Assembly (NCBI GenBank): GCA_963667805.1
Contig: OY764016.1
Location: forward strand, 1,874,725-1,938,724
From: Candidatus Poribacteria bacterium
GTDB taxonomy: Bacteria > Poribacteria > WGA-4E > WGA-3G
Direction: 5' to 3'
Length of the DNA stretch: 64,000 nucleotides
The position numbers and the translations under genes were made by a program. The notes below the pieces were generated by a model. That model searched no databases and was not told the DNA's origin. It worked only from the letters and a program-made list of their open reading frames with translations. Numbering within the stretch: the stretch's first letter is position 1; each line of letters begins with the position of its first letter. Shown in pieces: positions 5,290-59,888 of this stretch.

Positions 5290-6054
5290 TTAGAGCGATA
5301 GAATTCCGCCCTCAACGAGCATTGGGGCACCCGTCATGTATCTGGATTCATCGGAGGCTAAATAGACGGCTGCCCAAGCGATGTCTTCGGGTTCACCGAT
5401 GCCCAACGGGTGCATCTCTTTAATTTCTCTGTTTATTGCCTCTGGGTCTGGCTGCTTCGATAAAAATTCTTGGTAGAGTTCAGTGTTAATCGTGCCGGGA
5501 CAGAGACTGTTGACTCGGATGTTGTCTTCGGCATACCGGACCGCCATGCTTCGCGTGAGATGCACGACAGCGGCTTTGGAGGAGGTATAGGCGGGGTGCA
5601 TCGGGAACCCGACATAGGCAGATTCACTCGCCATGTTGATGATCGAACCGCCCCCAGCTTCGCGCATCAACGGGATTATCGCCCGAGAAACGAGATAGAT
5701 GCTCTTCACATTGACGGCGTATTGGTGATCCCACTCTGCTTCGGAGATATCTTCTAATTCACCTACGACAGCAATACCGGCGTTATTGAATAGCACATTA
5801 GGGGTACCGAGTTCAGATGTGACGTGAGCAACGGCACTCTCAATCTGTGCCGCGTCGGTTACGTCGCACTCACAGAACAGGGCATTTCCGCCGGAGGATC
5901 GGATCTGCTCCGCGGTTGCTTCGCCGCGTTCTGTGTTTACGTCCCAGATAGCCACGGCTGCGCCTTCACCTGCAAAGAGTTCTGCGCTTTTCGCGCCGAT
6001 GCCTCGGGCTGCGCCGGTGATAATTGCGGTTTTATCTTTCAGTCGGTTCGGCAT
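5290..6054 (-). CDS. short-chain dehydrogenase/reductase (SDR) family oxidoreductase
   Basis: 254 aa with TGAARGIGAKSAELFAGEGAAV Rossmann motif, NNAG, and the YTSSKAAV catalytic Tyr-Lys motif. Confidence 0.85.
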   Translation of the reverse strand: MPNRLKDKTAIITGAARGIGAKSAELFAGEGAAVAIWDVNTERGEATAEQIRSSGGNALFCECDVTDAAQIESAVAHVTSELGTPNVLFNNAGIAVVGELEDISEAEWDHQYAVNVKSIYLVSRAIIPLMREAGGGSIINMASESAYVGFPMHPAYTSSKAAVVHLTRSMAVRYAEDNIRVNSLCPGTINTELYQEFLSKQPDPEAINREIKEMHPLGIGEPEDIAWAAVYLASDESRYMTGAPMLVEGGILSL

Positions 6055-6173
6055 GCAGGATCCTTTTTATGCGGAGGTTGGTACCATTTTCAAAGAAATC
6101 TCAGAACTGAATGGCGAGATAAAGCGAGGGGCTAAACAATGTTGTCATTAGCGTTAACACCTTAAACCGTATA

Positions 6174-6294
6174 GGACTTACGCAGTTTTGAGCGTAGCGT
6201 GCTTCTGTGAGAAGGAATCCGAAAAAACAACAGACGGACTTTTGGAAACCCAAACTGACAGTTTATGCTACAAAAGAGAACCGCGCGTAAGTCC
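6174..6294 (+). repeat. MITE-like hairpin element, copy A (121 bp, 10-bp perfect terminal inverted repeats GGACTTACGC/GCGTAAGTCC)
   Basis: Compared directly with the reverse complement of 14048-14170. Ends ~85% identical, centre divergent. Confidence 0.75.
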
Positions 6295-6297
6295 TAT

Positions 6298-6507
6298 TTA
6301 CGTTTGGTGGGTTCGTTGGATCCGCTTCGCTATTGTCTTGATGTCAGGTTCATCAGCTAACCACTCCTGGCGTTCTTCCGTAAAATTGCCTGTCCCGGGG
6401 CCACACTGTCTAAGAAACCTAACCATGCCCGCAGCACCAAGTTTCTCAGAGAGTACTTTAAGCCCAATTTCGTAAATCTCGTCATCGGTCATATTTCGCG
6501 TATTCAT
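6298..6507 (-). CDS. small hypothetical protein overlapping 3' end of the PIN gene (possible toxin partner/antitoxin-like)
   Basis: 69-aa ORF overlapping the upstream PIN gene by 26 nt in the same orientation. No recognisable domain. Confidence 0.3.
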   Translation of the reverse strand: MNTRNMTDDEIYEIGLKVLSEKLGAAGMVRFLRQCGPGTGNFTEERQEWLADEPDIKTIAKRIQRTHQT

Positions 6508-6970
6508 ATCCTGTTTCCTCTTGTAGCCATGTGTCTGGATATTCTACTCGGACGTGAAGTTCTGTATTGACGCGCTTTGCTATTTTCAGTAGCGAGTCAT
6601 CTGTTGTGAGAAAGATATCTGCGTTGCCACTTTCGGCACAAGCAAGATGTAGAGCATCTAACCGCTCAAAACCAAATGCTTCAAGTTGTTCACCTCGTGC
6701 TATTTCTGCCTCACCAACCCAAACGATTTGGTGTGCCAGAGATAGCAGAGTTTTGACTTTAGCGTGTTTGATTGGTTCTGTGATTCGATCAATTTCATCC
6801 GCATTGACGCTGCTGGCAAGCCATTGCCAGTAACCTATATCAAAATACTCAAGAATTGCCTCAACAGCTTCGGTTTCACGGCGAACTCGATTTTGCGTTT
6901 GAACATCAAAAGGACGACTGAAACAACAGGTATCAAGATAGATTTTCTTATTTTGTTGAGAATTTTGCAC
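6482..6970 (-). CDS. PIN-domain ribonuclease (VapC-like toxin family)
   Basis: 162 aa with conserved acidic PIN positions: IYLDTC near the N-terminus, DALHLA, and FLTTDD. Confidence 0.7.
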   Translation of the reverse strand: MQNSQQNKKIYLDTCCFSRPFDVQTQNRVRRETEAVEAILEYFDIGYWQWLASSVNADEIDRITEPIKHAKVKTLLSLAHQIVWVGEAEIARGEQLEAFGFERLDALHLACAESGNADIFLTTDDSLLKIAKRVNTELHVRVEYPDTWLQEETGYEYAKYDR

Positions 6971-7191
6971 GCGTTAATCTCTGGGCTTTTTGGAAATTTC
7001 CTTTTTATTATTCCTGAGTTAAAGATACCATGAACTTTATTGTAATGTCAAGTTTTTTCAGAAAAAAGGGTGTGTAAAGTTTTTGATATTCAGCGGTTCA
7101 AGAGCCGGGAATCGGAGTTCCGCCCCCCACCAGAAACACACGGTAGGAGCGATATCCCAAGCGCGACCTTCGACGAAATATTTACATACCC

Positions 7192-7230
7192 CAGAAAAAA
7201 TATAGGGCAGATTATGATCCGCCCCTATAT
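7192..7230 (-). terminator. rho-independent terminator after dienelactone hydrolase gene
   Basis: TATAGGGC...GCCCCTATA hairpin, preceded on the plus strand by an A8 run (a T-run on the minus strand). Confidence 0.55.
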
Positions 7231-7255
7231 CTACCGCAAAAGTCCATAGAACTGT

Positions 7256-8065
7256 TTAAAGACCTCTCAAAAGGGATACCCACCGTTCCCAAGCGGCTTT
7301 CGTGGCAGATTTCTGTGCGTCGTTGGCATCCGCTGCCATACCGCGTCTCAGGAAGGCGTGACCGACACCTTCATAGATGACGGGGTCGTAAGTGACGTTT
7401 GCAGCATCCGCGGCGGCTTTTGTGGCATCAATTGTGGCATTGATACGGTTGTCGCTCTCGCCGTAGAAGCCGTACACGGGTGCCGATATTTTGGGGACAT
7501 CTTCTATTGGTGCGGCACGACCGTAGAATACGAAACCAGCGGCGATTGTATCGGAATGGACGGCGTAACTGAACGTTTGTCCGCCTCCCCAGCAGAATCC
7601 GGAGACCGCAACCTTCTCGTTGGTTGACGGTAGATCGCGGGCATATTTCTGGATGGCATCCAGATCAGACGTGACTTGGGCAGGTGAAAGTTCACGGATA
7701 GTCCGTCGGACATCGTCCCCGGAGGCAAAACTCTCCGTGCCACCACCGTCAGGTCCCATACCGGAAAGCAGATCGGGGCAAATTGCCACGAATCCATCAG
7801 CGGCGAGCCTGTCTGCCACGAGCCGGATCCAATCGGTGAGTCCAAAAATCTCGTGGATGACAATGATAGCCGTCGCGGGTTCCTTCACCTCTGGATACAC
7901 AACAAATGTGTTGACGACACGTTCATCGGCGGTCGTTACTTTCACCCATTCGCCGTGTCGCGGTGATGCCTCGAGTTGCGTTTTTATACTGTCAGCACTT
8001 GTGTTTCCGATGAACAATAAACTGGCAAAAAAGAGGACTAACATGAAAGCGGGGTATATCTGCAT
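7256..8065 (-). CDS. dienelactone hydrolase family protein (secreted)
   Basis: 269 aa with signal peptide. VIHEIFGL...ICPDLL and GFCWGGG nucleophile-elbow region typical of the DLH fold. Confidence 0.75.
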   Translation of the reverse strand: MQIYPAFMLVLFFASLLFIGNTSADSIKTQLEASPRHGEWVKVTTADERVVNTFVVYPEVKEPATAIIVIHEIFGLTDWIRLVADRLAADGFVAICPDLLSGMGPDGGGTESFASGDDVRRTIRELSPAQVTSDLDAIQKYARDLPSTNEKVAVSGFCWGGGQTFSYAVHSDTIAAGFVFYGRAAPIEDVPKISAPVYGFYGESDNRINATIDATKAAADAANVTYDPVIYEGVGHAFLRRGMAADANDAQKSATKAAWERWVSLLRGL

Positions 8066-8075
8066 AGCTGATTCC

Positions 8076-9185
8076 TTATTTTTCCTTTGTTTTGTGAATG
8101 ATGGATTCTACGACTTTCTGCAGTTCAGAGGCAGGCATTGCACCGAACAGGAAGAAGTGAATATCCGAACTGGACCAGCTGAAGGCATACGTCGGTCCGC
8201 GTTGGTATTTATGGACACGCGTGCCATCAAGTTCAATTACATCTGATCCTCTGCGTCTGTCGCTGCCACGACGGGCGCGTTTGTCGGTTGTCTCAAATAT
8301 GGAGAAACCCAACAAACCATCTGTGTAGATCAGATGAATGGTATTCTTTTTATTTTTTATACCGTGAATATCCTGCAGCTGGAATCCCGGTGGCAGATAT
8401 TCAGGCTGGATGGGTTTTGTTTTAAGTATCTTTTCTCCGTCTGCGAGCGAGATTGAATAGCTGCGTTGTGGTTCGAGCTTTATCTCTTTTTGAAAGGCTT
8501 CCCATTTCCGTTCTACGACTTCAGGGTCGAAACTAATTCGGGTATAGACGAACATTGCCCGAAGGACACCCTCAGCGTCGAGTGCCTCTAATCGCAGGAT
8601 AACTCCGTTTTCACGGGCAAAGAAAATCCGCTGTGTCGGTCTGCCAGCAAATTTGGGAGTAATCGTTAGGAGGTCGGTTTCATAATTCGCTATATCTTCT
8701 GTAGCGGCAGATTTTTCCAAGTCGTAATTTTGGGCAATCAGTTCAACATCTTTTTCAGAAAATAGACTTCTCACTTGATGCCATTTGTGATCTTCGTGCT
8801 CCCTATCTCGACCATTTCTGCGATTCTCGTTCCGGTCACTTCTTCGGTTGTCCCTGTGCCTTTCGTCTCGACGTTCGTCGCCGTGCGGATCGCCGAACGA
8901 CTTTCGCTCACCCACCACAGACAATTCCTTTCCGTAGAAAATATCCGGGGATTTATGGATAACGAGTTCTTCAAACGTACGGGTGCCTCTTGACGAAATG
9001 AACGTCTTTAAACGAATCCCTACGTAGTTGACTTCACGCTCGGCTGCTGCAATGCGTTCAAGCGTCCCGGTATCAGCCGAAAGGGGTTGAGGTGACCAGA
9101 GCAAAAACGCTAAAACTGGCATACAAAAGAGAGAGTATATAGGTTTCAAGCCCTTGCGAAGGATAAAATATGTATAGATTCGCAT
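8076..9185 (-). CDS. periplasmic protein downstream of anti-sigma factor (MucB/RseB-like, tentative) with R/D/E-rich low-complexity insert
   Basis: 369 aa with N-terminal hydrophobic segment. Highly charged stretch DERRDERHRDNRRSDRNENRRNGRDREHEDH. Third gene in the sigma / anti-sigma operon. Confidence 0.4.
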   Translation of the reverse strand: MRIYTYFILRKGLKPIYSLFCMPVLAFLLWSPQPLSADTGTLERIAAAEREVNYVGIRLKTFISSRGTRTFEELVIHKSPDIFYGKELSVVGERKSFGDPHGDERRDERHRDNRRSDRNENRRNGRDREHEDHKWHQVRSLFSEKDVELIAQNYDLEKSAATEDIANYETDLLTITPKFAGRPTQRIFFARENGVILRLEALDAEGVLRAMFVYTRISFDPEVVERKWEAFQKEIKLEPQRSYSISLADGEKILKTKPIQPEYLPPGFQLQDIHGIKNKKNTIHLIYTDGLLGFSIFETTDKRARRGSDRRRGSDVIELDGTRVHKYQRGPTYAFSWSSSDIHFFLFGAMPASELQKVVESIIHKTKEK

Positions 9186-9216
9186 AGATTCACCTGTTTG
9201 GTTCCTATTGCGTCAT

Positions 9217-9990
9217 TTAATTTCCCACATCCTCCAGATAGAGGTTGAGAAACAGTTCAGCGTCATCGGTCGTTTCTGTGGGTAAAGCGTCTTCCGAAGA
9301 TGTTGTGCGAAAGGAGACACCGACGTTTGCATCATAAGTGTTATCTACTAACTGTTCGGTGTGAAGTCCGAAGTAGAAATCAAGGGTCTCTTCGTATTGC
9401 GATCCAGTCGGATTGTAAAAGTAGAGGGCACCCAAAATCAGGACGAGCGTCAGAATACCGGTTGCGCCTGCGGTAACAGGACGGAAAAACCAGCGTCCCA
9501 GGTCGGGTATCCAGCGTCTTATATCAGGTATCCATCCGGTGTGAGTGGATTCCTCTTTGCGTGCCTGTGCGGCTTGTTGGCGTATTTTCGCCATCACTGT
9601 GCTTTGGATAGATGACGGTGCAGGATGCTGAATTGTTTTGATCCGCTCTCGATTTTGGCGGAACACCGAGAGCATATTGGAACACTCGCTGCAGGAATGG
9701 AGGTGCGCTTCCATCCGATCGCGCATGTCAGGCGCCAATTCGTCATCTAAATAAGCAGAGAGTTCATCTTGAAACTGCGCATGTATTTTTGCCATCACTC
9801 CGGCTTTGAGTGTTGATGGCACTGGGCGCGCGATGTTTACGACCCTCTGACGGTTCTCTTCAAACGCTGCCAGTATATTGGAACACTCGGCGCAGGAACG
9901 CAGATGTGCTTCAATTTGCTTATGCTGGCTCGGGCTTAATTCATTATCTAAGTAGGCGGATAATTCCTCTTGGATTTTTCGATGGTTCAT
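9217..9990 (-). CDS. anti-sigma factor with two tandem zf-HC2 (putative zinc-finger) N-domains and one TM segment
   Basis: Two copies of ELSAYLD(N/D)EL...EAHL(R/H)SC(A/S)ECSN(I/M)L..F(E/R)(E/Q)NR. TM helix ATGILTLVLILGALYFY. Immediately downstream of the ECF sigma gene. Confidence 0.7.
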   Translation of the reverse strand: MNHRKIQEELSAYLDNELSPSQHKQIEAHLRSCAECSNILAAFEENRQRVVNIARPVPSTLKAGVMAKIHAQFQDELSAYLDDELAPDMRDRMEAHLHSCSECSNMLSVFRQNRERIKTIQHPAPSSIQSTVMAKIRQQAAQARKEESTHTGWIPDIRRWIPDLGRWFFRPVTAGATGILTLVLILGALYFYNPTGSQYEETLDFYFGLHTEQLVDNTYDANVGVSFRTTSSEDALPTETTDDAELFLNLYLEDVGN

Positions 9991-10020
9991 ATCTCCAATC
10001 GAGGATCGTGGTAAAAGGTG

Positions 10021-10641
10021 TTACCACTCGACTCGCTCCAATTCTTTTTTTAGTGCTTTTCGGGCTTCATGTAATCGGGATTTAACGCGTCCCAGTGTGC
10101 ATCCCAGAATTTCAGATATTTCCTCATAAGGCAGATCACGCAGTTCTCTTAACACCAAAATCTCTCTATGACTGGTTTTGAGCTTTGCGAGGGCTGCGTG
10201 AACGATTTCTTTCTCTTCGGTGCGTAGTGTTTCCTCTTCAGGTGTCACCGTATCAAGAGGGACCCACGGCTGTGAATCATCAATCTCTGTCGGATCGGTT
10301 TTTCGGCGTTGATATTGATCGATGTGGTTGAGACACTTATTTTTTACAATGCGGTAGAGCCATGTGGAAAATCGGGAGCGGAATTGGAATTTCCCGATAT
10401 TTTCCCATGCAGAGAGGAAGGCATCTTGCGCGACATCTTCAGCGTCTTGGTGATGACCGAGCATCCCGTAGGCGATATTGTAAACCCAGTGTTGATATTG
10501 AATCACAAGGGTTCCCATTGCATCGGCATCACCTTTTTGACAGCGCAAAACAATCTCACGTTCCTGTGCGAGATCCAATTCTTCTGTCTTGCTTATCTCC
10601 GAATAGGTTTCCATAGTAGTTGTCAGGGTCGCAACGGACAT
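10021..10641 (-). CDS. ECF-type RNA polymerase sigma-70 family factor
   Basis: Sigma-70 region 2 (DVAQDAFLSAWENIGKF) and region 4 HTH (LPYEEISEILGCTLGRVKSRLHEAR). Start placed at the ATG with a GGAG RBS; the ORF track extends to 10686. Confidence 0.85.
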   Translation of the reverse strand: MSVATLTTTMETYSEISKTEELDLAQEREIVLRCQKGDADAMGTLVIQYQHWVYNIAYGMLGHHQDAEDVAQDAFLSAWENIGKFQFRSRFSTWLYRIVKNKCLNHIDQYQRRKTDPTEIDDSQPWVPLDTVTPEEETLRTEEKEIVHAALAKLKTSHREILVLRELRDLPYEEISEILGCTLGRVKSRLHEARKALKKELERVEW

Positions 10642-10812
10642 ACTTCTTCTCCAAACTGCCGGGATAAAGAACACGCCTCTATTCAATGCTTCAAGAGTGC
10701 TGATTTTCAGATCTCAGATTCCGCTTAAATCAAGCAAAATTTTGAATAGAAACAAAATGAATGGCTTTCTTGCTTCATTAGACATCTAACAAAACAAAAA
10801 GTTCGTTTTACT

Positions 10813-13356
10813 TTATTTAACCATGTTTTCTTTACCCGGTGTGGTTTGGACCTGTTTGAGTGCGCCACTTCCATTCGGCCATCTGCCGAGGGCAACATCC
10901 TTCTCCTGTTTATCAAACGTTACTGCATCAAGGACTTGATTGCCACGCGTATCGGTATCAACGAGCATTACAGTTTCGCCATTACGGGACAACTTGAAGT
11001 TGGCGTGCAACCCCCCATCGGCTTTACCGTCTTCATCCAACCACACAAGGAGATAGCCTTGCGCTGGAATCGTCGTATTCTCAGGAAATGCCCATTTTTT
11101 AAGATTGTCTATCTTATCTGTGAGATACATCCCAGAGAGATTCACTACATCGCTGGTGAGGTTGTGCAACTCAAGCCAGTCTTCGTATTGTCCTTGCGGA
11201 TCGGCAAGCGTTTTGGTGTTGGATGCCATCAGTTCGTTAATGACGATTGGTGTCTCCTTTGCAACGGGGACTCCAACGCGATACTGCGCCGCGCCTTGTT
11301 CAGCCCTCGCGGGTGAAAAGGCAGTTGTCCCGTGTGTTTCGACGGCGTTCGCCTCTACGTAATAGAAAACTGTGGTGTCTGCGCGGAAACCCGGGATGTG
11401 TCCGACATAACTATCCCCTTCTTTTGCCATCACCACTTGATTAAAAACGACATACCGATCCGTACTATAATACAACAAAACCGAATCAACGGCAATTGAT
11501 TTGTCAAGTGTCGCTTTAACTGAGACAGCCTGATTCGCTATGGGAGGCGTGCCAGATCCGATTTCAACTGAAACAATCTCCGGGACCGGCTGGTTGAGTT
11601 CAGGATGATTTATCAGATGCTCACGGCGTTGGTTCACAAACCGCTCAAGGTCGGCAGGAACACCGGTTGCAAATTCCTCATATCCATACAGTTTCTTATC
11701 GTCTTTCTGCACCTCTGTATCAATGAGGGCTTGATATTCCTTGATAATCGGTTCAAATACGTCCCAATCGAGCCATTCGTCCCTAACGGTTCGGACGTGT
11801 GCGAGATACCGTGCACGCCACTGCGGATTTGAGAGCAACCGCTTAATCAGCGGACGTCCAGCATTGTCTTCATGTGCGACGGGAGATACCATTCCATTTT
11901 CCAAGTCTCCCCAGGACCAGCCACCGGGTCCTCCACCCCCAGGACCGCCTCGACCTGATCGACCGAATCTGAGACTTTCATTGTTATCGTGCGGCACGAG
12001 GTGGAATCTACCGTTGACATCCTGATAAAGGGTATAATCGCCGCCTTTGTGGATGTAGCCATCGTCATCCATGAAGACGTTTGAAACGGCGAGTTGCCAC
12101 AGGACCTGGTCAATGTTAAGAACAGCTGGAAGCTTCTCCGCAAGTTCCGCGTCAGGTGTGGCATCGTCAAGCATTTTAGTGAGCGCAATAAGACCTTCCC
12201 ATGGATTTTCTACATTGCTGGTTTTGAGTTGATACGTTTCTTGGTAGGATGCTGGATCGTCTCCGGCATAAGTCAACGCACCGCCTCTACCGGGACCTAT
12301 TTTCCAGCGGATCCCTCCCCTTGTGCCAAACCATTCAGCAAGAAAGTCCTTGTTGTATTGTTGGAGATTGATATAGACACCCCAATTTTCACCGTTGATA
12401 ACCAATTTCACGAGGTTCGTTTTCATCGCGGGGATATAGTCACGAGAGATTTGATTGTAGAGGACTTCACGCAGAAAAGAGGCATCAACGTGTCCGTTGA
12501 GTAGGTTCAGCGTTTTGTAGCCATAGAGGCGCTGTCCATCTTCAGCGTAGTCAACAGCGATGTTGAAAGATTTTTTCTCCGATTGGACAGTAAAGTAGGA
12601 GGAAGTGCCTCGAAAATGGACACCGACTTCCGGGTAAACCTTGCCATCAACAATCAGTTCTGCTGGAACTTCAATATCCGTGCGATAAAACGAGGACATC
12701 TGTTCGTACCAGTCTTCATGATGGAATCGGAGATAAAGGGTGCGAAGTGTTTGTGCGTTGTAGAGTGAAGGGGAGCCTTCTGGTGTCATATCAAGGCTGG
12801 TCTGGATATCGTTCTGAACCCCCGCCTTCAAACTTTCCTGGCTCATGAGAGACAAAGTTCCACCATCGCGCGCGTCCAGTGCGGCTTGCCGCTCGGTACC
12901 GGTGAGTTTCCCGTTCTTATCTTCGTCGAATTGATCTCGCAGTTTTTCTGGGGGTTGGGGTCCGCGACGTCCTCCTCGTCCCCCGCCAAAGCCAAAACCG
13001 GGCATCCCACCCGGGGGACCTCCGAATCCCATGTCAGGACCTTGGTCATCCTCCATCCGCTTAATTTCTTCTGGTGTTAGTGTATTGCCTGTAAGGGCTT
13101 CGATGCTGGTAACCCGGAGCATGAGATCGCCCTCTTCATTGCTCAGTTCGCCATCTCCATTGAGGTCAAACCGCTTCTGATCGTCTGAGAGTTTTGGGGT
13201 ATCCTGATTGTCTTGAGCGTTGGCGTGTATTGCCCACCCCATGATTATGAGCGCAATGAGTGTTATTGATTTAAGGTGTTTCACGATATTCTCCTTTTTG
13301 GTTTTAGATTTGGACAAGATAGAAAAGTTCGCGGTTTCTCCGCCTGCTCTGTTCAT
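10813..13356 (-). CDS. CotH kinase-family protein with EF-hand/dockerin-like N-terminal motif and C-terminal lamin-tail domain (LTD)
   Basis: 847-aa ORF. DLNGDGELSNEEGD calcium-binding-like loop. Central CotH region. C-terminal LTD (INELMASNTKTL...WLELHN...NLSGMYLTDK...FKLSRNGETVMLV). ATG at 13356 overlaps the upstream stop (ATGA). An alternative GTG at 13284 with an AAGGAG RBS would start directly at signal peptide MKHLKSITLIALIIMGWAIHA. Confidence 0.75.
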   Translation of the reverse strand: MNRAGGETANFSILSKSKTKKENIVKHLKSITLIALIIMGWAIHANAQDNQDTPKLSDDQKRFDLNGDGELSNEEGDLMLRVTSIEALTGNTLTPEEIKRMEDDQGPDMGFGGPPGGMPGFGFGGGRGGRRGPQPPEKLRDQFDEDKNGKLTGTERQAALDARDGGTLSLMSQESLKAGVQNDIQTSLDMTPEGSPSLYNAQTLRTLYLRFHHEDWYEQMSSFYRTDIEVPAELIVDGKVYPEVGVHFRGTSSYFTVQSEKKSFNIAVDYAEDGQRLYGYKTLNLLNGHVDASFLREVLYNQISRDYIPAMKTNLVKLVINGENWGVYINLQQYNKDFLAEWFGTRGGIRWKIGPGRGGALTYAGDDPASYQETYQLKTSNVENPWEGLIALTKMLDDATPDAELAEKLPAVLNIDQVLWQLAVSNVFMDDDGYIHKGGDYTLYQDVNGRFHLVPHDNNESLRFGRSGRGGPGGGGPGGWSWGDLENGMVSPVAHEDNAGRPLIKRLLSNPQWRARYLAHVRTVRDEWLDWDVFEPIIKEYQALIDTEVQKDDKKLYGYEEFATGVPADLERFVNQRREHLINHPELNQPVPEIVSVEIGSGTPPIANQAVSVKATLDKSIAVDSVLLYYSTDRYVVFNQVVMAKEGDSYVGHIPGFRADTTVFYYVEANAVETHGTTAFSPARAEQGAAQYRVGVPVAKETPIVINELMASNTKTLADPQGQYEDWLELHNLTSDVVNLSGMYLTDKIDNLKKWAFPENTTIPAQGYLLVWLDEDGKADGGLHANFKLSRNGETVMLVDTDTRGNQVLDAVTFDKQEKDVALGRWPNGSGALKQVQTTPGKENMVK

Positions 13357-14012
13357 TCCTTATCCATTTTTACGTCTGTGACGTTTTCAATCCCTGAGAG
13401 TTCGTTAAAGAAAGCGATCCATTCCTGTGGATTCGTCAATCTCACCCGAAATGTCAATTCAATCAACTGTGTTTTTTTTACGCGTTGTTCGAGGAGCCGT
13501 TCATAAATCAGATGCTTATCGAAAATCGGACGATAGATAGTTTCGGGATCCTGATTTGTTGGGAGACAGAATTCGAGACTGAACTCGTTATCGTTACCAA
13601 AGCGTTGATGCCAATGGTACATACAGAGGATAATAATACCGATAAGGAAGGTCGCCAGAATCGCGACAGATGGGTTTCCAGCGCCGACCGCCATCCCGAC
13701 AGCTAAGGCGTAAAAAACGAAACCGATGTCGCGTGGATCTTGGATGGCGGTCCGGAACCGAATGATAGACAAGGCTCCGACAAGGCTAAACGCCCGCGCG
13801 ATGCTATCACCAATCACCACCATCACCACAGAAATCAACATACATAGGATGATGAGTGTATCGGTAAACGATTTTTGTGGGACCTTGGCATGGGTCCAGA
13901 AATAGATGTTAACAATGAAAACGCCGAGCGCGAATGAGAGTAAGACTCTGAGGGCATCAGCACCGAGGTTTACAAGTGGTGGGAGCGTTAAAAAATCAAA
14001 GAATATATGCAT
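13353..14012 (-). CDS. DUF4956-like polytopic membrane protein
   Basis: 219 aa with 4-5 predicted TM helices. SLVGALSIIRFRTAI motif. Translationally coupled to the CotH gene. Confidence 0.55.
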   Translation of the reverse strand: MHIFFDFLTLPPLVNLGADALRVLLSFALGVFIVNIYFWTHAKVPQKSFTDTLIILCMLISVVMVVIGDSIARAFSLVGALSIIRFRTAIQDPRDIGFVFYALAVGMAVGAGNPSVAILATFLIGIIILCMYHWHQRFGNDNEFSLEFCLPTNQDPETIYRPIFDKHLIYERLLEQRVKKTQLIELTFRVRLTNPQEWIAFFNELSGIENVTDVKMDKE

Positions 14013-14047
14013 TCCGGTTTGCCAATTAGAAAATTGTATTATAGTTA

Positions 14048-14170
14048 GGACTTACGCAGGGTTGCTCTTTTGTAGCATAAACTGTTCGTTTGGGTTTCCA
14101 GAAAGTTAACAGCGTTTTTTAGAGAATTGCTATCTAACAGAACGCGCTACACTCAAAATTGCGTAAGTCC
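14048..14170 (-). repeat. MITE-like hairpin element, copy B (inverted orientation relative to copy A)
   Basis: Same TIRs and conserved internal segments (TTTTGAG(C/T)GTAGCG, GGAAACCCAAAC, ACAGTTTATGCTACAAAAGAG). Confidence 0.75.
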
Positions 14171-14293
14171 TGATAGTCTACCATAATTAGACAGGTATGT
14201 GGAGAAAATGTTGAAAAATTGTCTCAAAAAGTGAATTAAAGCAGTTTACTGTGGTTCCACCCATTTGGACGTTCGGAAATTTTTGGACACCCC

Positions 14294-14725
14294 CTATTCG
14301 GTTGATGTGCCTGATTCTGCCCCGTAAAGGACTATCCGATCAACCATTCCTATTGATGATGATAACACGATGCGGATAGCATCTGTAGAGAGCGGCGCCC
14401 GAACGATATAGGGTGATGTCCGGATCGGGGTTTTGACTGCCTTGACAACTCGCCAATTGTCTTCACCCATCCGAGCGTAGACAGTCATATTCTTCAGTGG
14501 GTCAATCGGATCAAAGTGAATCTCAATGCGACTGATAGACCGTCTTTCGGGAAGTATCCACTTCTGAATTGCCCCTGTGCCGCTCTCGGACATTTCAAAG
14601 GTCTCCGTCATGCCCCCATCAACGCGCACTGTGTTCTGTGCTGCCATCGAAAGGCAACCGAGCATCACGAACGGAAGTAAGGCAAATGCGAAAGTGTGAT
14701 AGATTGGGTTTTTGAGGTGTGTCAT
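14294..14725 (-). CDS. hypothetical secreted protein
   Basis: 143 aa with signal peptide and no recognised domain. Confidence 0.4.
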   Translation of the reverse strand: MTHLKNPIYHTFAFALLPFVMLGCLSMAAQNTVRVDGGMTETFEMSESGTGAIQKWILPERRSISRIEIHFDPIDPLKNMTVYARMGEDNWRVVKAVKTPIRTSPYIVRAPLSTDAIRIVLSSSIGMVDRIVLYGAESGTSTE

Positions 14726-25965: not shown

Positions 25966-26304
25966 ATGTTTACGCAGAAGCTCACAGCCAGCCTCCGGTT
26001 TATAGGTATTCTGTTGCTGAGAGTTCTGCTGGGGTACGTTGTAGGTTATGTATGGTCTTTCGTTGTAGCATATCTTTTTCATATCATTATGGATGTCAGG
26101 ATCCCTCGCGACCTATTTGATTACTTCTATGATTCTGGTCCTCCCCGAGAAGGACGCTACGGTGGTAGGGCAGGCGAGGTTTACGGTTTTGCTTGGCAAA
26201 TTGGATTCAAAGGTTTCTGGGTATGGTTTGCTATCGGCATCCTCTGGGGTTTTTTGCAAGGACGGTTGGATTTGCGGAGATTAATAAGGAAGCGGCATAC
26301 TTAA
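25966..26304 (+). CDS. small integral membrane protein
   Basis: 112 aa with 3 hydrophobic helices. Strong AAGGAGG RBS. Confidence 0.45.
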   Translation: MFTQKLTASLRFIGILLLRVLLGYVVGYVWSFVVAYLFHIIMDVRIPRDLFDYFYDSGPPREGRYGGRAGEVYGFAWQIGFKGFWVWFAIGILWGFLQGRLDLRRLIRKRHT

Positions 26305-26330
26305 AACAGAATTTACCCAAAATTAGCATG

Positions 26331-26360
26331 TAACCCCCTAAATCCCCCTTATCAGGGGGA
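26331..26360. repeat. palindromic G/C motif TAACCCCCTAAATCCCCCTTATCAGGGGGA (copy 1)
   Basis: Same motif as 31596-31626, located after the stop of the small membrane protein gene. Confidence 0.6.
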
Positions 26361-26419
26361 CTGATGGATCTACTGTGTAAGTCTAAAAAAAATAAAGTCG
26401 TCCTTGGTAAAGGAAAGTT

Positions 26420-29721: not shown

Positions 29722-30047
29722 GGGCTGCTCTCCATTACATTACGAGCAGGTTTCTGGTTAATTTATACTGGATTTGGGAATTTTGACGCTTCTTCGACAA
29801 AACATTAAACCTTTAGCCTGCAACAATACGCAAAAATACCCCGCTGAATGCCACACGCGCAAATGTAATACATTGTCCCGCAAGTCCACACGCGACTTGC
29901 GCTACGGATTTCGTCTATTCCCAGATAAAATCCAGCGTTGATTCGCAAAAACACGCAGGCGGATATACGCAAAGGAACATTATTTATCTGCGGAAACACC
30001 CAAGCAAAAACACCCGCTTCACCGAACCGCAAGGAATAATTAAAAAA
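29722..30047 (+). repeat. composite intergenic repeat region (modules A, B, C-like, D, E of a dispersed repeat family)
   Basis: Contains GGGCTGCTCTCCATTACATTACGAGCAGGTTTCTGG, AGCCTGCAACAATACGC, CCCAAGCAAAAACACCCGC and CCGCAAGGAATAATTAAAAAA, each matching copies at 53.4-59.9 kb. Confidence 0.7.
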
Positions 30048-31595: not shown

Positions 31596-31626
31596 TAACC
31601 CCCCTAACCCCCCTTATCAGGGGGGA
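31596..31626. repeat. palindromic G/C motif TAACCCCCCTAACCCCCCTTATCAGGGGGGA (copy 2)
   Basis: Near-identical to 26331-26360; contains a C5-6/G5-6 hairpin. Confidence 0.6.
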
Positions 31627-34507: not shown

Positions 34508-34810
34508 AATCTGAGCGGGGTTTCCGTTGTCAACCCCGATCCAAAATTAATAAAGCACTTTTTTGAGGGTATGAAAGGTAAACCTAACTCAAAACCGCCA
34601 TGTCATGAATCTGAGCGGAGTGTCCGGTGTTAATCCCAGTCCAAAATTAATAAAGCACTTTTTTGAGGGTATGAAAGGTAAACCTAACTCAAAACCACCG
34701 TGTCATGAATCTGAGCGGAGTGTCCGGTGTTAATCCCGATCTAAAATTAATAAAGCACTTTTTTGAGGGTGTGAAAGGTAAACTCGACTTAAAACTGTCG
34801 CGTAATAACC
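34508..34810. repeat. three tandem copies of a 100-bp repeat (copy 3 diverges at its 3' end)
   Basis: Unit AATCTGAGCGGAGTGTCCGGTGTTAATCCCGATCCAAAATTAATAAAGCACTTTTTTGAGGGTATGAAAGGTAAACCTAACTCAAAACCACCGTGTCATG starts at 34508, 34608 and 34708. Confidence 0.9.
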
Positions 34811-39011: not shown

Positions 39012-39057
39012 GCAATTGTAGCGTAGACTGTTAGTCTGCGCCATAAAAGGAGAAACT

Positions 39058-44734: not shown

Positions 44735-44828
44735 GGGGGAGGATAGGGTCCGGTGGCCCTACCGGTCTTCAAAACCGGCTTGTCCATGCAAGTGGATAGG
44801 TGGGTTCGACTCCCACCCTCTCCCGCCA
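44735..44828 (+). tRNA. selC: tRNA-Sec (anticodon TCA), 94 nt with 8-bp acceptor stem and long variable arm; CCA encoded
   Basis: GGGGGAGG...CCTCTCCC acceptor. Anticodon loop CTTCAAA. Extra arm CTTGTCCATGCAAGTGGATAGG. T-arm GGGTTCGACTCCC. Terminal GCCA. Confidence 0.85.
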
Positions 44829-54533: not shown

Positions 54534-55703
54534 ATGATTACAATCGCAGAACGGTTAGAAAAACTTCCACCCTATCTTTTTGTAGACCTGCGCCAAAAAA
54601 TGCAGGCAGCACAAGCGCGCGGTGTCGATGTGATTAGCCTCGGTATCGGTGACCCGGATCTTCCAACACCTGACCCAGTTGTTGAAACCTTATGTAGTGC
54701 GATTCAAAATCCCGATGATGCAGACAGGCACCGCTACGGCTGCGACAACCCTGTTGACGATTTTCCACAGGCAGTCCTCGACTTTTACCAGCACCGTTAC
54801 GGGGTCTCCTTATCCGATGATCAGGTAGCGACAACGCTCGGTAGTAAAGACGCAATTGTCAAAATGGCACTCGGTATCCTCAATCCGGGCGATATTGGTA
54901 TAGCGGCGAGTCCAGGCTACCCTACCTACAATATCGGACACGTCTTCGCCAGTGCAACGAGCTACTATGCTCCGCTTCTGCGAGAAAATGATTTCTATGT
55001 TGACTTTGACGTTATTCCTGATGAAGTGAAACGACTTGCCAAAGTTCTCTGGATCAACTATCCAAACAATCCGACAACCGCCACTGCCAACCTCGATTTT
55101 TTCGAGCGTGCCGTGGAGTTTGGTAGACAAAATAACATCCTGATCGCGCACGACAACGCCTATAGTGAGAACACCTACGACGGTTATCGCTCACCCAGTA
55201 TATTGCAGGTGGAAGGTGCAGCGGAAGTTGCGGTTGAGTTTTTCTCATTAAGCAAAGCGTTCAACATGACAGGCTGGCGCTTGGGATTTGTCGTTGGCAA
55301 CCCAACTGCTGTTAGTGCAGTCAAAACGGTGAAAGATAATATCGACAACGGTTCACTCCGCTCACTTCAATTCGCCGGTGCAAAGGCACTTTCAATAGCG
55401 GACGAGATTACCCCCGCAATCAATGTCGTTTATCAAAAACGCCGCGATATGGTGGTAGATGCCCTGAGAGACAGCGGGTGGACACTCGAGAAGCCGAAAG
55501 CAACAATGTATGTTTGGGCACCGGTCCCTGAGCGTTTTAACGGTTCAAGTCGTGCCTTTGCGACGGCATTGCTTGAAGAAGCGGGTGTTGTTGTAACACC
55601 AGGTCTCGGATATGGACAGTGGAGCGAAGGCTATTTTAGAATCTCGCTGACATACCCAGACGGAGTGATTGCGGAAGCCATTTCGCGTATTCGCGCTTTT
55701 TAA
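54534..55703 (+). CDS. class I (fold-type I) PLP aminotransferase, LL-diaminopimelate aminotransferase (DapL)-like
   Basis: KLPPYLFVDL...GVDVISLGIGDPDLPTP N-terminal pattern and SLSKAFNMTGWRLG PLP-lysine region. Linked to the dapB genes. Confidence 0.7.
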   Translation: MITIAERLEKLPPYLFVDLRQKMQAAQARGVDVISLGIGDPDLPTPDPVVETLCSAIQNPDDADRHRYGCDNPVDDFPQAVLDFYQHRYGVSLSDDQVATTLGSKDAIVKMALGILNPGDIGIAASPGYPTYNIGHVFASATSYYAPLLRENDFYVDFDVIPDEVKRLAKVLWINYPNNPTTATANLDFFERAVEFGRQNNILIAHDNAYSENTYDGYRSPSILQVEGAAEVAVEFFSLSKAFNMTGWRLGFVVGNPTAVSAVKTVKDNIDNGSLRSLQFAGAKALSIADEITPAINVVYQKRRDMVVDALRDSGWTLEKPKATMYVWAPVPERFNGSSRAFATALLEEAGVVVTPGLGYGQWSEGYFRISLTYPDGVIAEAISRIRAF

Positions 55704-55790
55704 TCTTACCTTGCGGTTCGGTCAGGTGGATTAATAATCTCACGTGCCCTTTCGTATATCCGCCTGCTCCGTTGTTGCAGGCTGCCATCA
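55698..55790 (-). repeat. intergenic repeat modules E and B in inverted orientation
   Basis: CTTACCTTGCGG (rc of CCGCAAGGTAAG) and CCTGCTCCGTTGTTGCAGGC (rc of the module B hairpin). Confidence 0.65.
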
Positions 55791-58800: not shown

Positions 58801-59766
58801 GCAGGCAATTACAGGTTCCTGGTCACGGCATTCCGTAAAGATTGGCCCTATACACATACGCCAGCAGTGGTGGATTTCAGTATATCACCACCCCTCTGGA
58901 CGCGGTGGCGGACTTATCTTCCAACAGTCATCTTTATGACCGTTGTTCTAACGCTCATTGGTCGTCTGATTGTAAACCGTCGCCATACCCTACAACTGCG
59001 TAATGAAGTGCGTCAAAGGGAAGAAGCGGAGATACAACGTATCCGTGCTGAACTGAGCGAAGCGCAGAATATTCAGATGGGACTTCTACCGACCGAAGCC
59101 CCGGATACGAAAGGGTTTGATGTCGCAGGTATGTCGGTCCCCGCAACACAGGTAGGTGGCGACTTCTACGATTACCTCACCGTCGCGAACGGACAGACCG
59201 CTATCGCGGTCGCAGATGCCGCCGGAAAAGGATTAAGAGGCGCAATGAATGCCGTGCTAACGAATGGGATGCTATATGAAGTCTCGCGTTTCAAGTCCGA
59301 ATCGGGTATCATTCTCACGGATCTCAATGCCGGGTTAGCCCCACGCATGTACGGACCGAGTTTCATCGCGCTGAACCTCGCTGTGCTTGATGAAAATAAT
59401 AAACGCGTTGACTATGCGAACGGCGGACAACCCTATCCTGTTCTTAAGCGAGGGGCGGAGATCATTGAAATTGAAAATAGCGATCTTCCACTTGGCAGTA
59501 TGAAAAAGGTGGAGTATGAGTCGGTCACCTTCGATTTAGATGCGGGTGACGTCCTAATTTTTCATAGCGACGGTCTGATTGAGGCGCTCAATACAGAAGA
59601 GGAAATGTATGGCACGGAACGTTTAAAGGAAGTGGTTTCAGAAATTCCTGATGGTTTCACTGCGACAGAAGTTATCCAAAGCCTCGTTGACGATGTTCAA
59701 AACTTCGTGGGAGAAGCGGAGCAATACGACGATATGACAATCGTTGTTATCAAAATCCCCTTTTAA
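55894..59766 (+). CDS. giant sensor: periplasmic Reg_prop/Y_Y_Y beta-propeller region - TM helix - coiled coil - PP2C-type (SpoIIE/RsbU-like) serine phosphatase
   Basis: 1290 aa with signal peptide. Reg_prop-like repeats. TM LPTVIFMTVVLTLIGRLIV. Coiled coil REEAEIQRIRAELSEAQNIQ. Phosphatase motifs GGDFYDY, DAAGKG, FHSDGL. Confidence 0.8.
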   Translation: MKNAILILSIVCLTLLVCVETESEQILTYTVADGLIGPVVPVVFQDSRGDLWFGSDRGGVSRFDGIRFESYIGSPDTSENAPTSNVGPGALLGQTRQIVEDKWGHIWFLTHFRAENSGRVSRFDGSSINLIGTGNSLLVDDHGDIWVGENQQLTKYITPGVQRLPQAHPNEIIGEDLLRSRDFTINIIFQSADGTIWIGGSEGEEQPHGVILSFRENRWVEDPLKITDSDNANEKTDDGTQRVHPNIGFTRYDLSNLNAVNAIETIGEDTFGNLWFGGYNLLLRFDGKVFEKILPLAWGQSGSIGSRPASIQRLASIQNDTKNRVWFSDGRTTRWWHDSQHGNLLGFLELEDAWGNLWFTDEAGAHQYDANLTQLPDRINSGLGVEGIHTIYEAIDGKLWFGHDNGVTSFDPTPAISTHAGLGTNRVRMIFEDSRGYLWFSVPGGVARYDAESEELTTHIFRVSSVQNDSSRASQTDNRTMERVRPLRTEIEKIFEVGGHVWFIDEPGVGGSSTRLRYTFFRYANGKFGQVSIPIQTAIGPGGERSDTNTNVLVHEGEHTWMAFGGHLFRADATGLLRLTNTGFQRIPFQEIGPNTTPTPIPPITFGAAAITDVYRDSNGRLWVHLDNGESLRYPKAINTATNRPSKPETLPLKATTLLKIASGSKWFFNAVTGKLILWSDTELGSPLPLDGESSTLPIAVWKNPRAENNRITFLFPDALKTYHGTTLISLESIELAELQDSLTTQDGVLWLATSRGVIRYDGEKAKTYTTKEDGFLVDNVKDVMEDSRGNIWFATWGGGTVRYDGETFYNLTTKDGLTHNNISKIHESSNKDIWFTTEGGVTQYTPTRGGLPECRLTSLESDKIYTDLSSSLTLPSRGTKILNIQGISPLREGLSYRFKLIGLDTPTWTNVSAQEFSLLATGAGGTSDAWTPSTTSVSTPQHTMRDSGIVQELQNQDGILRIRYTGLKAGNYRFLVTAFRKDWPYTHTPAVVDFSISPPLWTRWRTYLPTVIFMTVVLTLIGRLIVNRRHTLQLRNEVRQREEAEIQRIRAELSEAQNIQMGLLPTEAPDTKGFDVAGMSVPATQVGGDFYDYLTVANGQTAIAVADAAGKGLRGAMNAVLTNGMLYEVSRFKSESGIILTDLNAGLAPRMYGPSFIALNLAVLDENNKRVDYANGGQPYPVLKRGAEIIEIENSDLPLGSMKKVEYESVTFDLDAGDVLIFHSDGLIEALNTEEEMYGTERLKEVVSEIPDGFTATEVIQSLVDDVQNFVGEAEQYDDMTIVVIKIPF

Positions 59767-59888
59767 TTTTTCCTTGCGGATCTTTAATTATACCTTGCGG
59801 AGAAAGGACGTGCGTTGGAACTATTAGATGCGTTCCTCAAATCTGAAGAAATACCCTATCAAAAACCCTGCACCGTTGTTGCAGGCTA
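59761..59888 (-). repeat. intergenic repeat: two inverted module E copies, module C, and inverted module B hairpin acting as minus-strand terminator
   Basis: TTCCTTGCGGATC and TACCTTGCGGAG (rc CCGCAAGG...). GAAATACCCTATCAAAAACC. CCTGCACCGTTGTTGCAGG. Confidence 0.7.
59858..59885 (-). terminator. rho-independent terminator for the minus-strand kinase/nucleotidyltransferase gene (CCTGC-AACAACGGT-GCAGG + GTTTTTGAT on minus strand)
   Basis: Hairpin with T-run when read on the minus strand, 48 nt past the stop at 59933. Confidence 0.6.

What the first reader, a model, noticed from the sequence alone, without database searches (positions are those of the whole stretch)
6174..14170. Two inverted copies of a ~122-bp MITE-like hairpin element
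Copies at 6174-6294 (+) and 14048-14170 (-) share 10-bp perfect terminal inverted repeats (GGACTTACGC...GCGTAAGTCC) and conserved internal boxes, but differ in a central segment. The internal complementarity (TTTTGAGCGTAGC vs GCTACAAAAG) predicts a long stem-loop. Both copies sit in intergenic gaps between same-direction minus-strand genes (SDR/small ORF, and DUF4956/secreted protein). This could be a non-autonomous transposable element or a structured RNA.
Basis: seen in the sequence. Interest (0 to 1): 0.55.

Follow-up and report, generated by a model that had tools for sequence, protein, structure and literature searches.

The report
Poribacterial MITE with IS701-type ends
The two look-alike 125-bp hairpin sequences are copies of a small, non-coding "hitch-hiker" transposon (a MITE) that is common in sponge-associated Poribacteria and carries the same 13-bp ends as IS701-family insertion sequences. 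It is a real mobile element of an ordinary kind.

Summary
Two 125/127-bp elements lie at 6172-6296 (+) and 14046-14172 (-). They are 81.5% identical, and the similarity stops exactly at the ends. The true termini are 13 bp: YAGGACTTACGCA...TGCGTAAGTCCTR.

Copy B is a proven insertion. Four related Poribacteria genomes have an intact 149-bp spacer where the window has 132 bp more, which is the 127-bp element plus a duplicated ACTAT. Copy A has no target duplication and no clean empty site. It sits in a variable PIN-toxin islet.

The same termini bound at least 128 short elements in Poribacteria, Cyanobacteria, Methanosarcina, Chloroflexota, Legionellaceae and other lineages. Their cores fall into 55 unrelated groups. 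Perfect 5-bp duplications flank 88 of 120 elements, against 1 of 120 in a shuffled control.

The termini equal those of ISPlag1 and of 1.25-1.38-kb cyanobacterial IS701-family insertion sequences, which also make 5-bp duplications. The window's core sequence occurs only in Poribacteria (47 distinct copies).

No transposase was found in the window or in any Poribacteria locus fetched. There is no Rfam match and no orientation bias. One short subterminal hairpin shows compensatory changes.

Verdict: a MITE, a new family of a known kind, of modest interest.

The parts
6172..6296 (+). MITE copy A (125 bp), Poribacteria family 1; no target-site duplication (CCGTA vs TTTAC)
   Evidence: full-length member of family alignment A4
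6172..6184 (+). Left terminal inverted repeat of copy A (TAGGACTTACGCA)
6284..6296 (+). Right terminal inverted repeat of copy A (CGCGTAAGTCCTA; position 13 from the end is C instead of T)
6250..6267 (+). Subterminal hairpin of copy A (CCAAACT-GAC-AGTTTATG), followed by the invariant GCTACAAAAG box
14046..14172 (-). MITE copy B (127 bp), Poribacteria family 1, inverted relative to copy A
14041..14045 (.). Target-site duplication of copy B (ATGT on + strand is not it: the pentamer is ATAGT; ACTAT in gene orientation), first copy
14173..14177 (.). Target-site duplication of copy B (ATAGT), second copy
   Evidence: present once in the empty sites of L186, L187, L188, L191
14076..14094 (-). Subterminal hairpin of copy B (CCCAAACGAACAGTTTATG)
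26264..26386 (-). Decayed copy of a second Poribacteria MITE family with the same type of termini (now TTAGACTTACACA / TCCGCAAATCC) and a different core
   Evidence: nhmmer E=1.7e-12; alignment A6
39016..39048 (-). Solo copy of the family-1 subterminal hairpin module (GCGCAGACTAACAGTCTACGCTACAA) without terminal repeats, in a 46-bp gap between two genes

Best explanation
[quoted passage not shown] The element is about 122 bp and non-coding. It is bounded by the 13-bp inverted repeat YAGGACTTACGCA. It inserts into A/T-rich pentamers, which it duplicates.

Shown: copy B is an insertion that is absent from the orthologous site of related genomes. The ends are identical to those of IS701-family insertion sequences of the ISPlag1 type. 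Those insertion sequences make the same 5-bp duplications and coexist with their own MITEs in cyanobacteria.

Inferred: the Poribacteria element is moved in trans by an IS701-family DDE transposase encoded elsewhere. The transposase would bind the 13-bp ends, excise or copy the element, and integrate it through a 5-bp staggered cut. The window encodes no such enzyme.

Copy A lies in a variable islet next to a PIN-toxin module. It has lost or never kept its duplication, most simply through a later rearrangement at one flank.

The conserved short hairpin next to the right end is most likely a DNA-level feature of the element, such as a subterminal binding or architectural site. This is not shown.
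For: Alignment of the two copies is 81.5% identical, and the similarity ends at the termini.

Empty site: L186, L187, L188 and L191 have a 149-bp spacer. The window has 281 bp, which is 149 + 127 + 5, with ACTAT on both sides of the element.

Of 120 elements with enough flank, 88 have perfect 5-bp duplications and 10 more have 4 of 5, against 1 of 120 with shuffled partners. The duplicated pentamers are about 80% A/T.

The cores fall into 55 unrelated clusters. The window's core is found only in Poribacteria loci.

A metagenome scan for the family-specific right end gave 66 loci and 47 distinct full-length copies, 26 of 46 with perfect duplications. Sixteen copies are at least 93% identical to each other, which suggests a recent burst.

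Termini equal the ISPlag1 TIR CAGGACTTACGCAAGC..., an IS701-group element (PMC2464740).

L049:1059-2306 is an IS with a 22-bp TIR shared with a MITE in the same locus, and its ORF hits Pfam DDE_5. A Dolichospermum IS of 1380 bp has a 30-bp TIR starting CAGGACTTACGCA and a 337-aa protein that sources name IS701 family transposase. It has 5-bp duplications in L197 and L203.
Against: No transposase of this family was found in the window or in about 1.2 Mb of fetched loci apart from L049, so none in any Poribacteria locus (tblastn; ORF checks). The partner in Poribacteria is therefore inferred only.

Beyond the 13-bp ends the Poribacteria element shares nothing with the cyanobacterial insertion sequences, so it is not a simple deletion derivative of them.

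Copy A has no duplication and no clean empty site.

Only 2 of 10 assembled IS copies showed clean duplications. The others have flanks shared between contigs, probably through assembly or recombination across repeats.
Confidence: 0.88

Rival explanations
1. It is a structured non-coding or cis-regulatory RNA gene. The conserved ends form the closing helix of the RNA, and the repeats are paralogous RNA genes.
For: Both strands of both copies fold much better than shuffles, z from -3.4 to -5.0. A 5-8-bp subterminal hairpin keeps pairing through compensatory changes: 26 double-change cells against 6.2 +/- 1.8 in shuffles, and 91% of cells paired against 32-53% when partners are slid.
Against: No Rfam family matches, even at E<=1. 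No promoter-like or terminator-like site lies in or next to either copy. The two window copies are in opposite orientation to co-directional genes. Across the family the orientation is 10 same/same against 11 opposite/opposite (rough heuristic). The central third is variable and has no consensus structure. Target duplications and an empty site show that the unit behaves as inserted DNA. The closing helix is invariant because it is the transposase site, and it is shared by elements with unrelated cores.
Confidence: 0.04
2. It is a MITE, but it is mobilised by a transposase of another family and not by IS701. The match to ISPlag1-type ends would then be convergent or reflect shared ancestry of the ends only.
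For: No IS701-family gene was seen in any Poribacteria locus fetched. The identity with the cyanobacterial insertion sequences is limited to 13 bp.
Against: The 13-bp match is exact. The duplication length (5 bp) and the A/T-rich target are the same for the MITEs and for the IS copies. In cyanobacteria the IS and the MITE with these ends sit in the same locus and share 22 bp. No other transposase bounded by these ends turned up in the loci.
Confidence: 0.07
3. The two copies are part of a longer duplicated gene-flanking segment, or are REP-type palindromes spread by a RAYT/Y1 enzyme, and not a cut-and-paste or copy-and-paste element.
For: None beyond the palindromic nature of the sequence.
Against: Similarity stops exactly at the termini. 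The flank of copy A has no other match in any fetched sequence. Elements are flanked by 5-bp duplications, which REP elements lack (REP properties are from general knowledge).
Confidence: 0.01

Closest known systems
ISPlag1 of Planktothrix and its 197-bp remnants (IS701 group; PMC2464740), and the 337-aa 'IS701 family transposase' elements of Nostocales (L049, L196-L205)
   Same: The first 13 bases of the terminal inverted repeat are identical (CAGGACTTACGCA). Both make 5-bp target duplications. In cyanobacteria, short non-coding derivatives with the same ends sit beside the full insertion sequences.
   Different: The Poribacteria element shares no sequence with these insertion sequences beyond the 13-bp ends, whereas the cyanobacterial TIRs run to 22-30 bp. 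It encodes nothing. No full-length partner was found in Poribacteria.
Cyanobacterial MITEs such as Nezha (Anabaena/Nostoc, TIRs shared with ISNpu3; reviewed in PMC3184786)
   Same: Small (about 120-170 bp), non-coding, with TIRs and direct repeats. They have a stable predicted hairpin and an A/T-rich target. Mobility was inferred from filled and empty sites, and the partner IS may sit in another genome.
   Different: The host phylum differs. The family here was not found in the paper library: no paper combines Poribacteria and MITE in a relevant way, and the terminal sequence appears only in the ISPlag1 paper.
Correia/ERIC/RUP-type bacterial MITEs (PMC3184786)
   Same: The general architecture is the same: TIRs, intergenic location, either orientation, and the capacity to form long hairpins in transcripts.
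   Different: They have different termini, different duplications and different presumed transposases. No evidence here points to promoter, terminator or RNase-processing roles.

Membership tests
MITE (non-autonomous DNA transposon) | Short (<~300 bp) and without coding capacity | tested here: met
   125 and 127 bp. Only spurious overlapping ORFs. Family length is 121-131 bp.
MITE (non-autonomous DNA transposon) | Terminal inverted repeats | tested here: met
   13-bp YAGGACTTACGCA / TGCGTAAGTCCTR, invariant in 47 copies.
MITE (non-autonomous DNA transposon) | Target-site duplication of fixed length | tested here: met
   Copy B: ATAGT/ATAGT. Family 1: 26 of 46 perfect. All elements: 88 of 120 against 1 of 120 in the control. 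Copy A itself has none.
MITE (non-autonomous DNA transposon) | Filled versus empty orthologous sites | tested here: met
   Copy B is absent from L186, L187, L188 and L191, and the difference is exactly element + 5 bp. Copy A: inconclusive.
MITE (non-autonomous DNA transposon) | Multiple dispersed copies | tested here: met
   47 distinct copies in Poribacteria genomes and metagenomes. The copy number in the source genome was not measurable from a 64-kb window.
MITE (non-autonomous DNA transposon) | Termini shared with an autonomous element that supplies the transposase | tested here: met
   The same 13 bp end ISPlag1, L049:1059-2306 and a 1380-bp Dolichospermum IS. All of these are in cyanobacteria, not Poribacteria.
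IS701-family-dependent element (ISPlag1 type) | Same duplication length as the autonomous IS | tested here: met
   5 bp for the IS in L197 (AGTAA) and L203 (TTGAA). 8 of 10 IS copies were uninformative.
IS701-family-dependent element (ISPlag1 type) | A cognate DDE transposase (Pfam DDE_5/DDE_Tnp_1) in the same genome | not testable with these tools
   None in the 64-kb window or in the Poribacteria loci.
IS701-family-dependent element (ISPlag1 type) | Subterminal sequence derived from the parent IS (deletion derivative) | tested here: not met
   Beyond base 13 the ends differ from the cyanobacterial IS TIRs. The right-end pattern found no longer element in 66 metagenome loci.
Curated RNA families (Rfam 15) | Covariance-model match | tested here: not met
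   No hit at gathering score or at E<=1.
REP/BIME elements (RAYT-dependent) | Short imperfect palindromes without target duplication | tested here: not met
   5-bp duplications are present and the unit is about 125 bp with 13-bp TIRs. REP properties are from general knowledge.

The most novel reading that the evidence does not exclude
The 13-bp end CAGGACTTACGCA may be a minimal, portable transposase site. It has repeatedly captured unrelated short palindromic DNA to create new MITE families in several bacterial phyla and in Methanosarcina archaea (55 unrelated cores among 128 elements). In Poribacteria it would have picked up a host hairpin module that also exists on its own (window 39016-39048) and in tandem arrays (L151). 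That module is kept paired by compensatory changes, so the element may carry a functional DNA or RNA hairpin around the genome and persist without a resident transposase.
Probability: 0.15. Interest if true: 0.5.

Novelty: new member of a known kind. Interest (0 to 1): 0.3.

Why it matters
This gives Poribacteria, an uncultured sponge-symbiont phylum, a defined and apparently recently active MITE family with exact ends, target and consensus. That is useful for genome annotation, for recognising assembly breaks, and as a strain-level insertion marker, since copy B separates the window's lineage from relatives whose flanking protein is 91-94% identical. It also shows that one IS701-type end sequence is shared by elements in many phyla and in archaea, which points to wide horizontal spread of one transposase lineage. 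It does not reveal a new mechanism.

Tried and rejected
1. Rfam at the gathering score over the whole window and at E<=1 around copy A gave nothing for the element.

2. Promoter and terminator scans around both copies gave nothing in the element.

3. tblastn with the L049 transposase against the window and all loci found only L049 itself. Pairs of near-TIRs 1-4 kb apart in Poribacteria loci do not enclose a transposase, and ORFs cross the supposed ends.

4. A homologue search with the transposase listed only cyanobacterial proteins in the top 120 of 6035, so no Poribacteria partner could be picked out.

5. Exact look-ups of window proteins (DUF4956, and the 100%-identical PIN protein P0241) were not on record, so the source contig was not identified.

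6. A search for an empty site for copy A found relatives that have the same PIN+69-aa module without the element. However, the spacer differs by more than the element, so there is no clean junction. The 76 bases flanking copy A match nothing else.

8. Segmental duplication was rejected.

9. Inversion between the two inverted copies as the cause of copy A's missing duplication was rejected, because copy B keeps a perfect duplication.

Full report
**1. What is in the sequence**

GGACTTACGC occurs four times in the 64-kb window, and only as the two ends of each element. In a pairwise global alignment the elements are 106/130 = 81.5% identical. The similarity stops at the termini, and the flanks cannot be aligned. 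A comparison with many relatives (below) puts the true boundaries two bases further out: 6172-6296 (+) and 14046-14172 (-), with a 13-bp inverted repeat YAGGACTTACGCA ... TGCGTAAGTCCTR.

Copy A lies between the start of a short-chain dehydrogenase gene (5290-6054, -) and the stop of a 69-aa ORF (6298-6507, -) that follows a PIN-domain gene (6482-6970, -). Copy B lies between the start of a DUF4956 gene (13353-14012, -) and a 143-aa ORF (14294-14725, -). Each copy folds into a long hairpin, with z = -5.0 and -4.2 against dinucleotide shuffles.

**2. Copy B is an insertion**

The closest DUF4956 homologues, 89-94% identical, are named Candidatus Poribacteria, so the window comes from that phylum. 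In four related contigs with the same gene order, the spacer between the 143-aa gene and DUF4956 is 149 bp. In the window it is 281 bp. The alignment shows one gap of exactly 132 bp, which is the 127-bp element plus a second copy of ACTAT. That pentamer is present once in the relatives and on both sides of the element in the window. This is a classical filled/empty site pair with a 5-bp target-site duplication.

**3. Copy A is less clean**

Its flanking pentamers differ (CCGTA and TTTAC). The spacer between the dienelactone hydrolase (DLH, Pfam PF01738) gene and the SDR gene is a variable spot.
- In the closest relative, L192, the two genes are 10 bp apart.
- In L193 an HTH_37 gene lies between them.
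- In L194 and L195 the same PIN+69-aa module is present, as in the window.

L194 and L195 lack the element, but their 77-84-bp spacer cannot be aligned with the 63 bases on the SDR side of copy A. Those bases match nothing else fetched. A second event at that flank is the simplest reading. Inversion between copies A and B is excluded, because B keeps a perfect duplication.

**4. The family, and a much wider set with the same ends**

The hosts are Poribacteria, many Cyanobacteria, Methanosarcina and other Methanosarcinales, Chloroflexota, Legionellaceae, Moraxellaceae, Parabeggiatoa, a Planctomycetia MAG, Hymenobacter, a Parcubacteria MAG and others.

Positions just outside the 10-mer are also fixed: A at -1 in 125 of 126 elements, Y at -2, A at +11. 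Of 120 elements with enough flank, 88 have identical pentamers on the two sides and 10 more match at 4 of 5 positions. With shuffled partners the figure is 1 of 120. No other duplication length fits. The pentamers are about 80% A/T. Examples outside the two main phyla include L015 (Methanosarcinales, TAAAA) and L011 and L018 (Legionellaceae, TAAAT and ACTGG).

The cores between the ends fall into 55 unrelated clusters. The length range of 110-140 bp was imposed by the search pattern and carries no meaning.

The window's core belongs to a cluster of 14 elements. Those whose record titles were shown are all Poribacteria apart from L074, which is titled only 'uncultured bacterium'. A metagenome scan for the family-specific right end gave 66 more loci. 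Together they yield 47 distinct full-length copies of 121-131 bp, 26 of 46 with perfect duplications.

Sixteen copies are at least 93% identical to each other, which suggests a recent burst in one population. The window's copies are more diverged: their nearest neighbours are 69-79% identical in the multiple alignment.

Several variants exist:
- copies with another small palindrome nested in the hairpin loop (L148, L169);
- copies with an extra module (L123, L131);
- solo right ends;
- a tandem array of the hairpin module beside a right end (L151).

**5. Whose ends are these?**

The terminal sequence appears in one relevant paper. It is the start of the 29-bp terminal inverted repeat of ISPlag1 of Planktothrix, CAGGACTTACGCAAGCACGCTATATATAG. 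ISPlag1 is a 1306-bp element with a 337-aa transposase assigned to the IS701 group (PMC2464740).

Among the fetched loci, L049 (Rivularia) holds a 1248-bp element with a perfect 22-bp repeat, CAGGACTTACGCAACTGGCACA. A 121-bp MITE in the same locus shares those 22 bases at one end. Its ORF hits Pfam DDE_5. Its homologues are 337-aa proteins that sources name IS701 family transposase.

Ten places encoding one such protein (P0174, Dolichospermum) all show a 1380-bp element with a perfect 30-bp repeat that begins with the same 13 bases. Two of them (L197 AGTAA, L203 TTGAA) have clean 5-bp duplications. The others share one flank between contigs, as expected from assemblies or recombination across repeats.

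So the ends, the duplication length and the A/T-rich target of the MITEs match an IS701-family lineage. I recall from ISfinder that IS701-family members make 4- or 5-bp duplications. I could not check that in the library.

**6. What was not found**

No relative of this transposase is encoded in the window or in any Poribacteria locus fetched. The family-specific right end never bounded a longer element. Beyond base 13, the Poribacteria ends differ from the cyanobacterial IS ends. The element is therefore not a simple internal-deletion derivative of a known IS. Its mobilisation by an IS701-family enzyme in Poribacteria is an inference from the shared ends and duplication. Whole Poribacteria chromosomes could not be searched with the tools and caps available.

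**7. Structure**

On 47 copies the consensus structure consists of two parts only: the invariant terminal helix, and a short hairpin next to the right end, consensus CACAAACT-AAC-AGTTTGTG, followed by the invariant GCTACAAAAG. Two of its pairs change on both sides in 13 copies each (AA/TT to GG/CC, GA/TC, AC/GT). In total 91% of cells are paired, against 32-53% when partners are slid. There are 26 double-change cells, against 6.2 +/- 1.8 in shuffles.

That points to a constraint on the hairpin, but it cannot say whether the constraint acts on DNA or RNA. Few independent events underlie it.

The adjacent TTTT/AAAA never varies. The central third has no consensus structure.

Other evidence also argues against an RNA gene:
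- there is no Rfam match;
- there is no promoter-like or terminator-like site;
- orientation relative to neighbours is balanced, 10 against 11 by a rough ORF heuristic, and the two window copies are themselves in opposite orientation to co-directional genes.

**8. Verdict**

This is a genuine MITE, a new family in Poribacteria. It belongs to a large set of elements that share IS701/ISPlag1-type ends across phyla. It is a known kind of element with an ordinary mechanism, so interest is modest.

The points worth a further look are the breadth of hosts sharing one 13-bp end, the many unrelated cores, the missing partner in Poribacteria, and the conserved hairpin module, which also occurs on its own.

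Noticed in passing
window 26264-26386 (-): A decayed copy of a second Poribacteria MITE family with the same type of ends and a different core (CCCCCTGATAAGGGGGATTTAGGGGG). The termini are degraded. The related G/C-run hairpin alone is at 31596-31624.
   Followed up: partly
window 39016-39048 (-); L151:1-178 (-): The family-1 subterminal hairpin module occurs alone, without terminal repeats, filling a 46-bp gap between two co-directional genes. In L151 the module is tandemly repeated (period 29) next to a right end. It may be a remnant or an independent REP-like unit.
   Followed up: partly
L188:1772-1885 versus L187:1886: Contigs encoding the identical DUF4956 protein differ by a 114-bp insertion with ends TAGTAAAGCC...GGCTTTACTA at a TA site. 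This is another polymorphic MITE family in Poribacteria.
   Followed up: partly
window 6055-7255: The spacer between the DLH and SDR genes is a hotspot of variable content among related genomes. It is 10 bp in L192, holds an HTH_37 gene in L193, and holds a PIN gene plus a 69-aa ORF (a likely toxin-antitoxin pair, toxin first) in the window, L194 and L195.
   Followed up: partly
window 34508-34807: Three tandem copies of a 100-bp unit, 83-91% identical.
   Followed up: no
window 49695, 50570, 53574, 54510 (+); 30014-30046, 55697-55729, 59754-59779 (inverted): A recurring motif CCGCAAGGAAAATTAAAAA just before ATG of several genes, on both strands. It may be a shared leader or ribosome-binding region of a paralogous gene set that includes the repeat-rich genes at 51.5-53.4 kb.
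   Followed up: no
window 44735-44824 (+): A selenocysteine tRNA gene (Rfam tRNA-Sec, 78 bits), so the organism probably uses selenoproteins.
   Followed up: no
L148, L169 (metagenome loci): Family-1 copies carrying a nested ~90-bp palindromic insertion (GGATCAGTTACCAG...) inside the loop of the subterminal hairpin. This is a MITE within a MITE.
   Followed up: no
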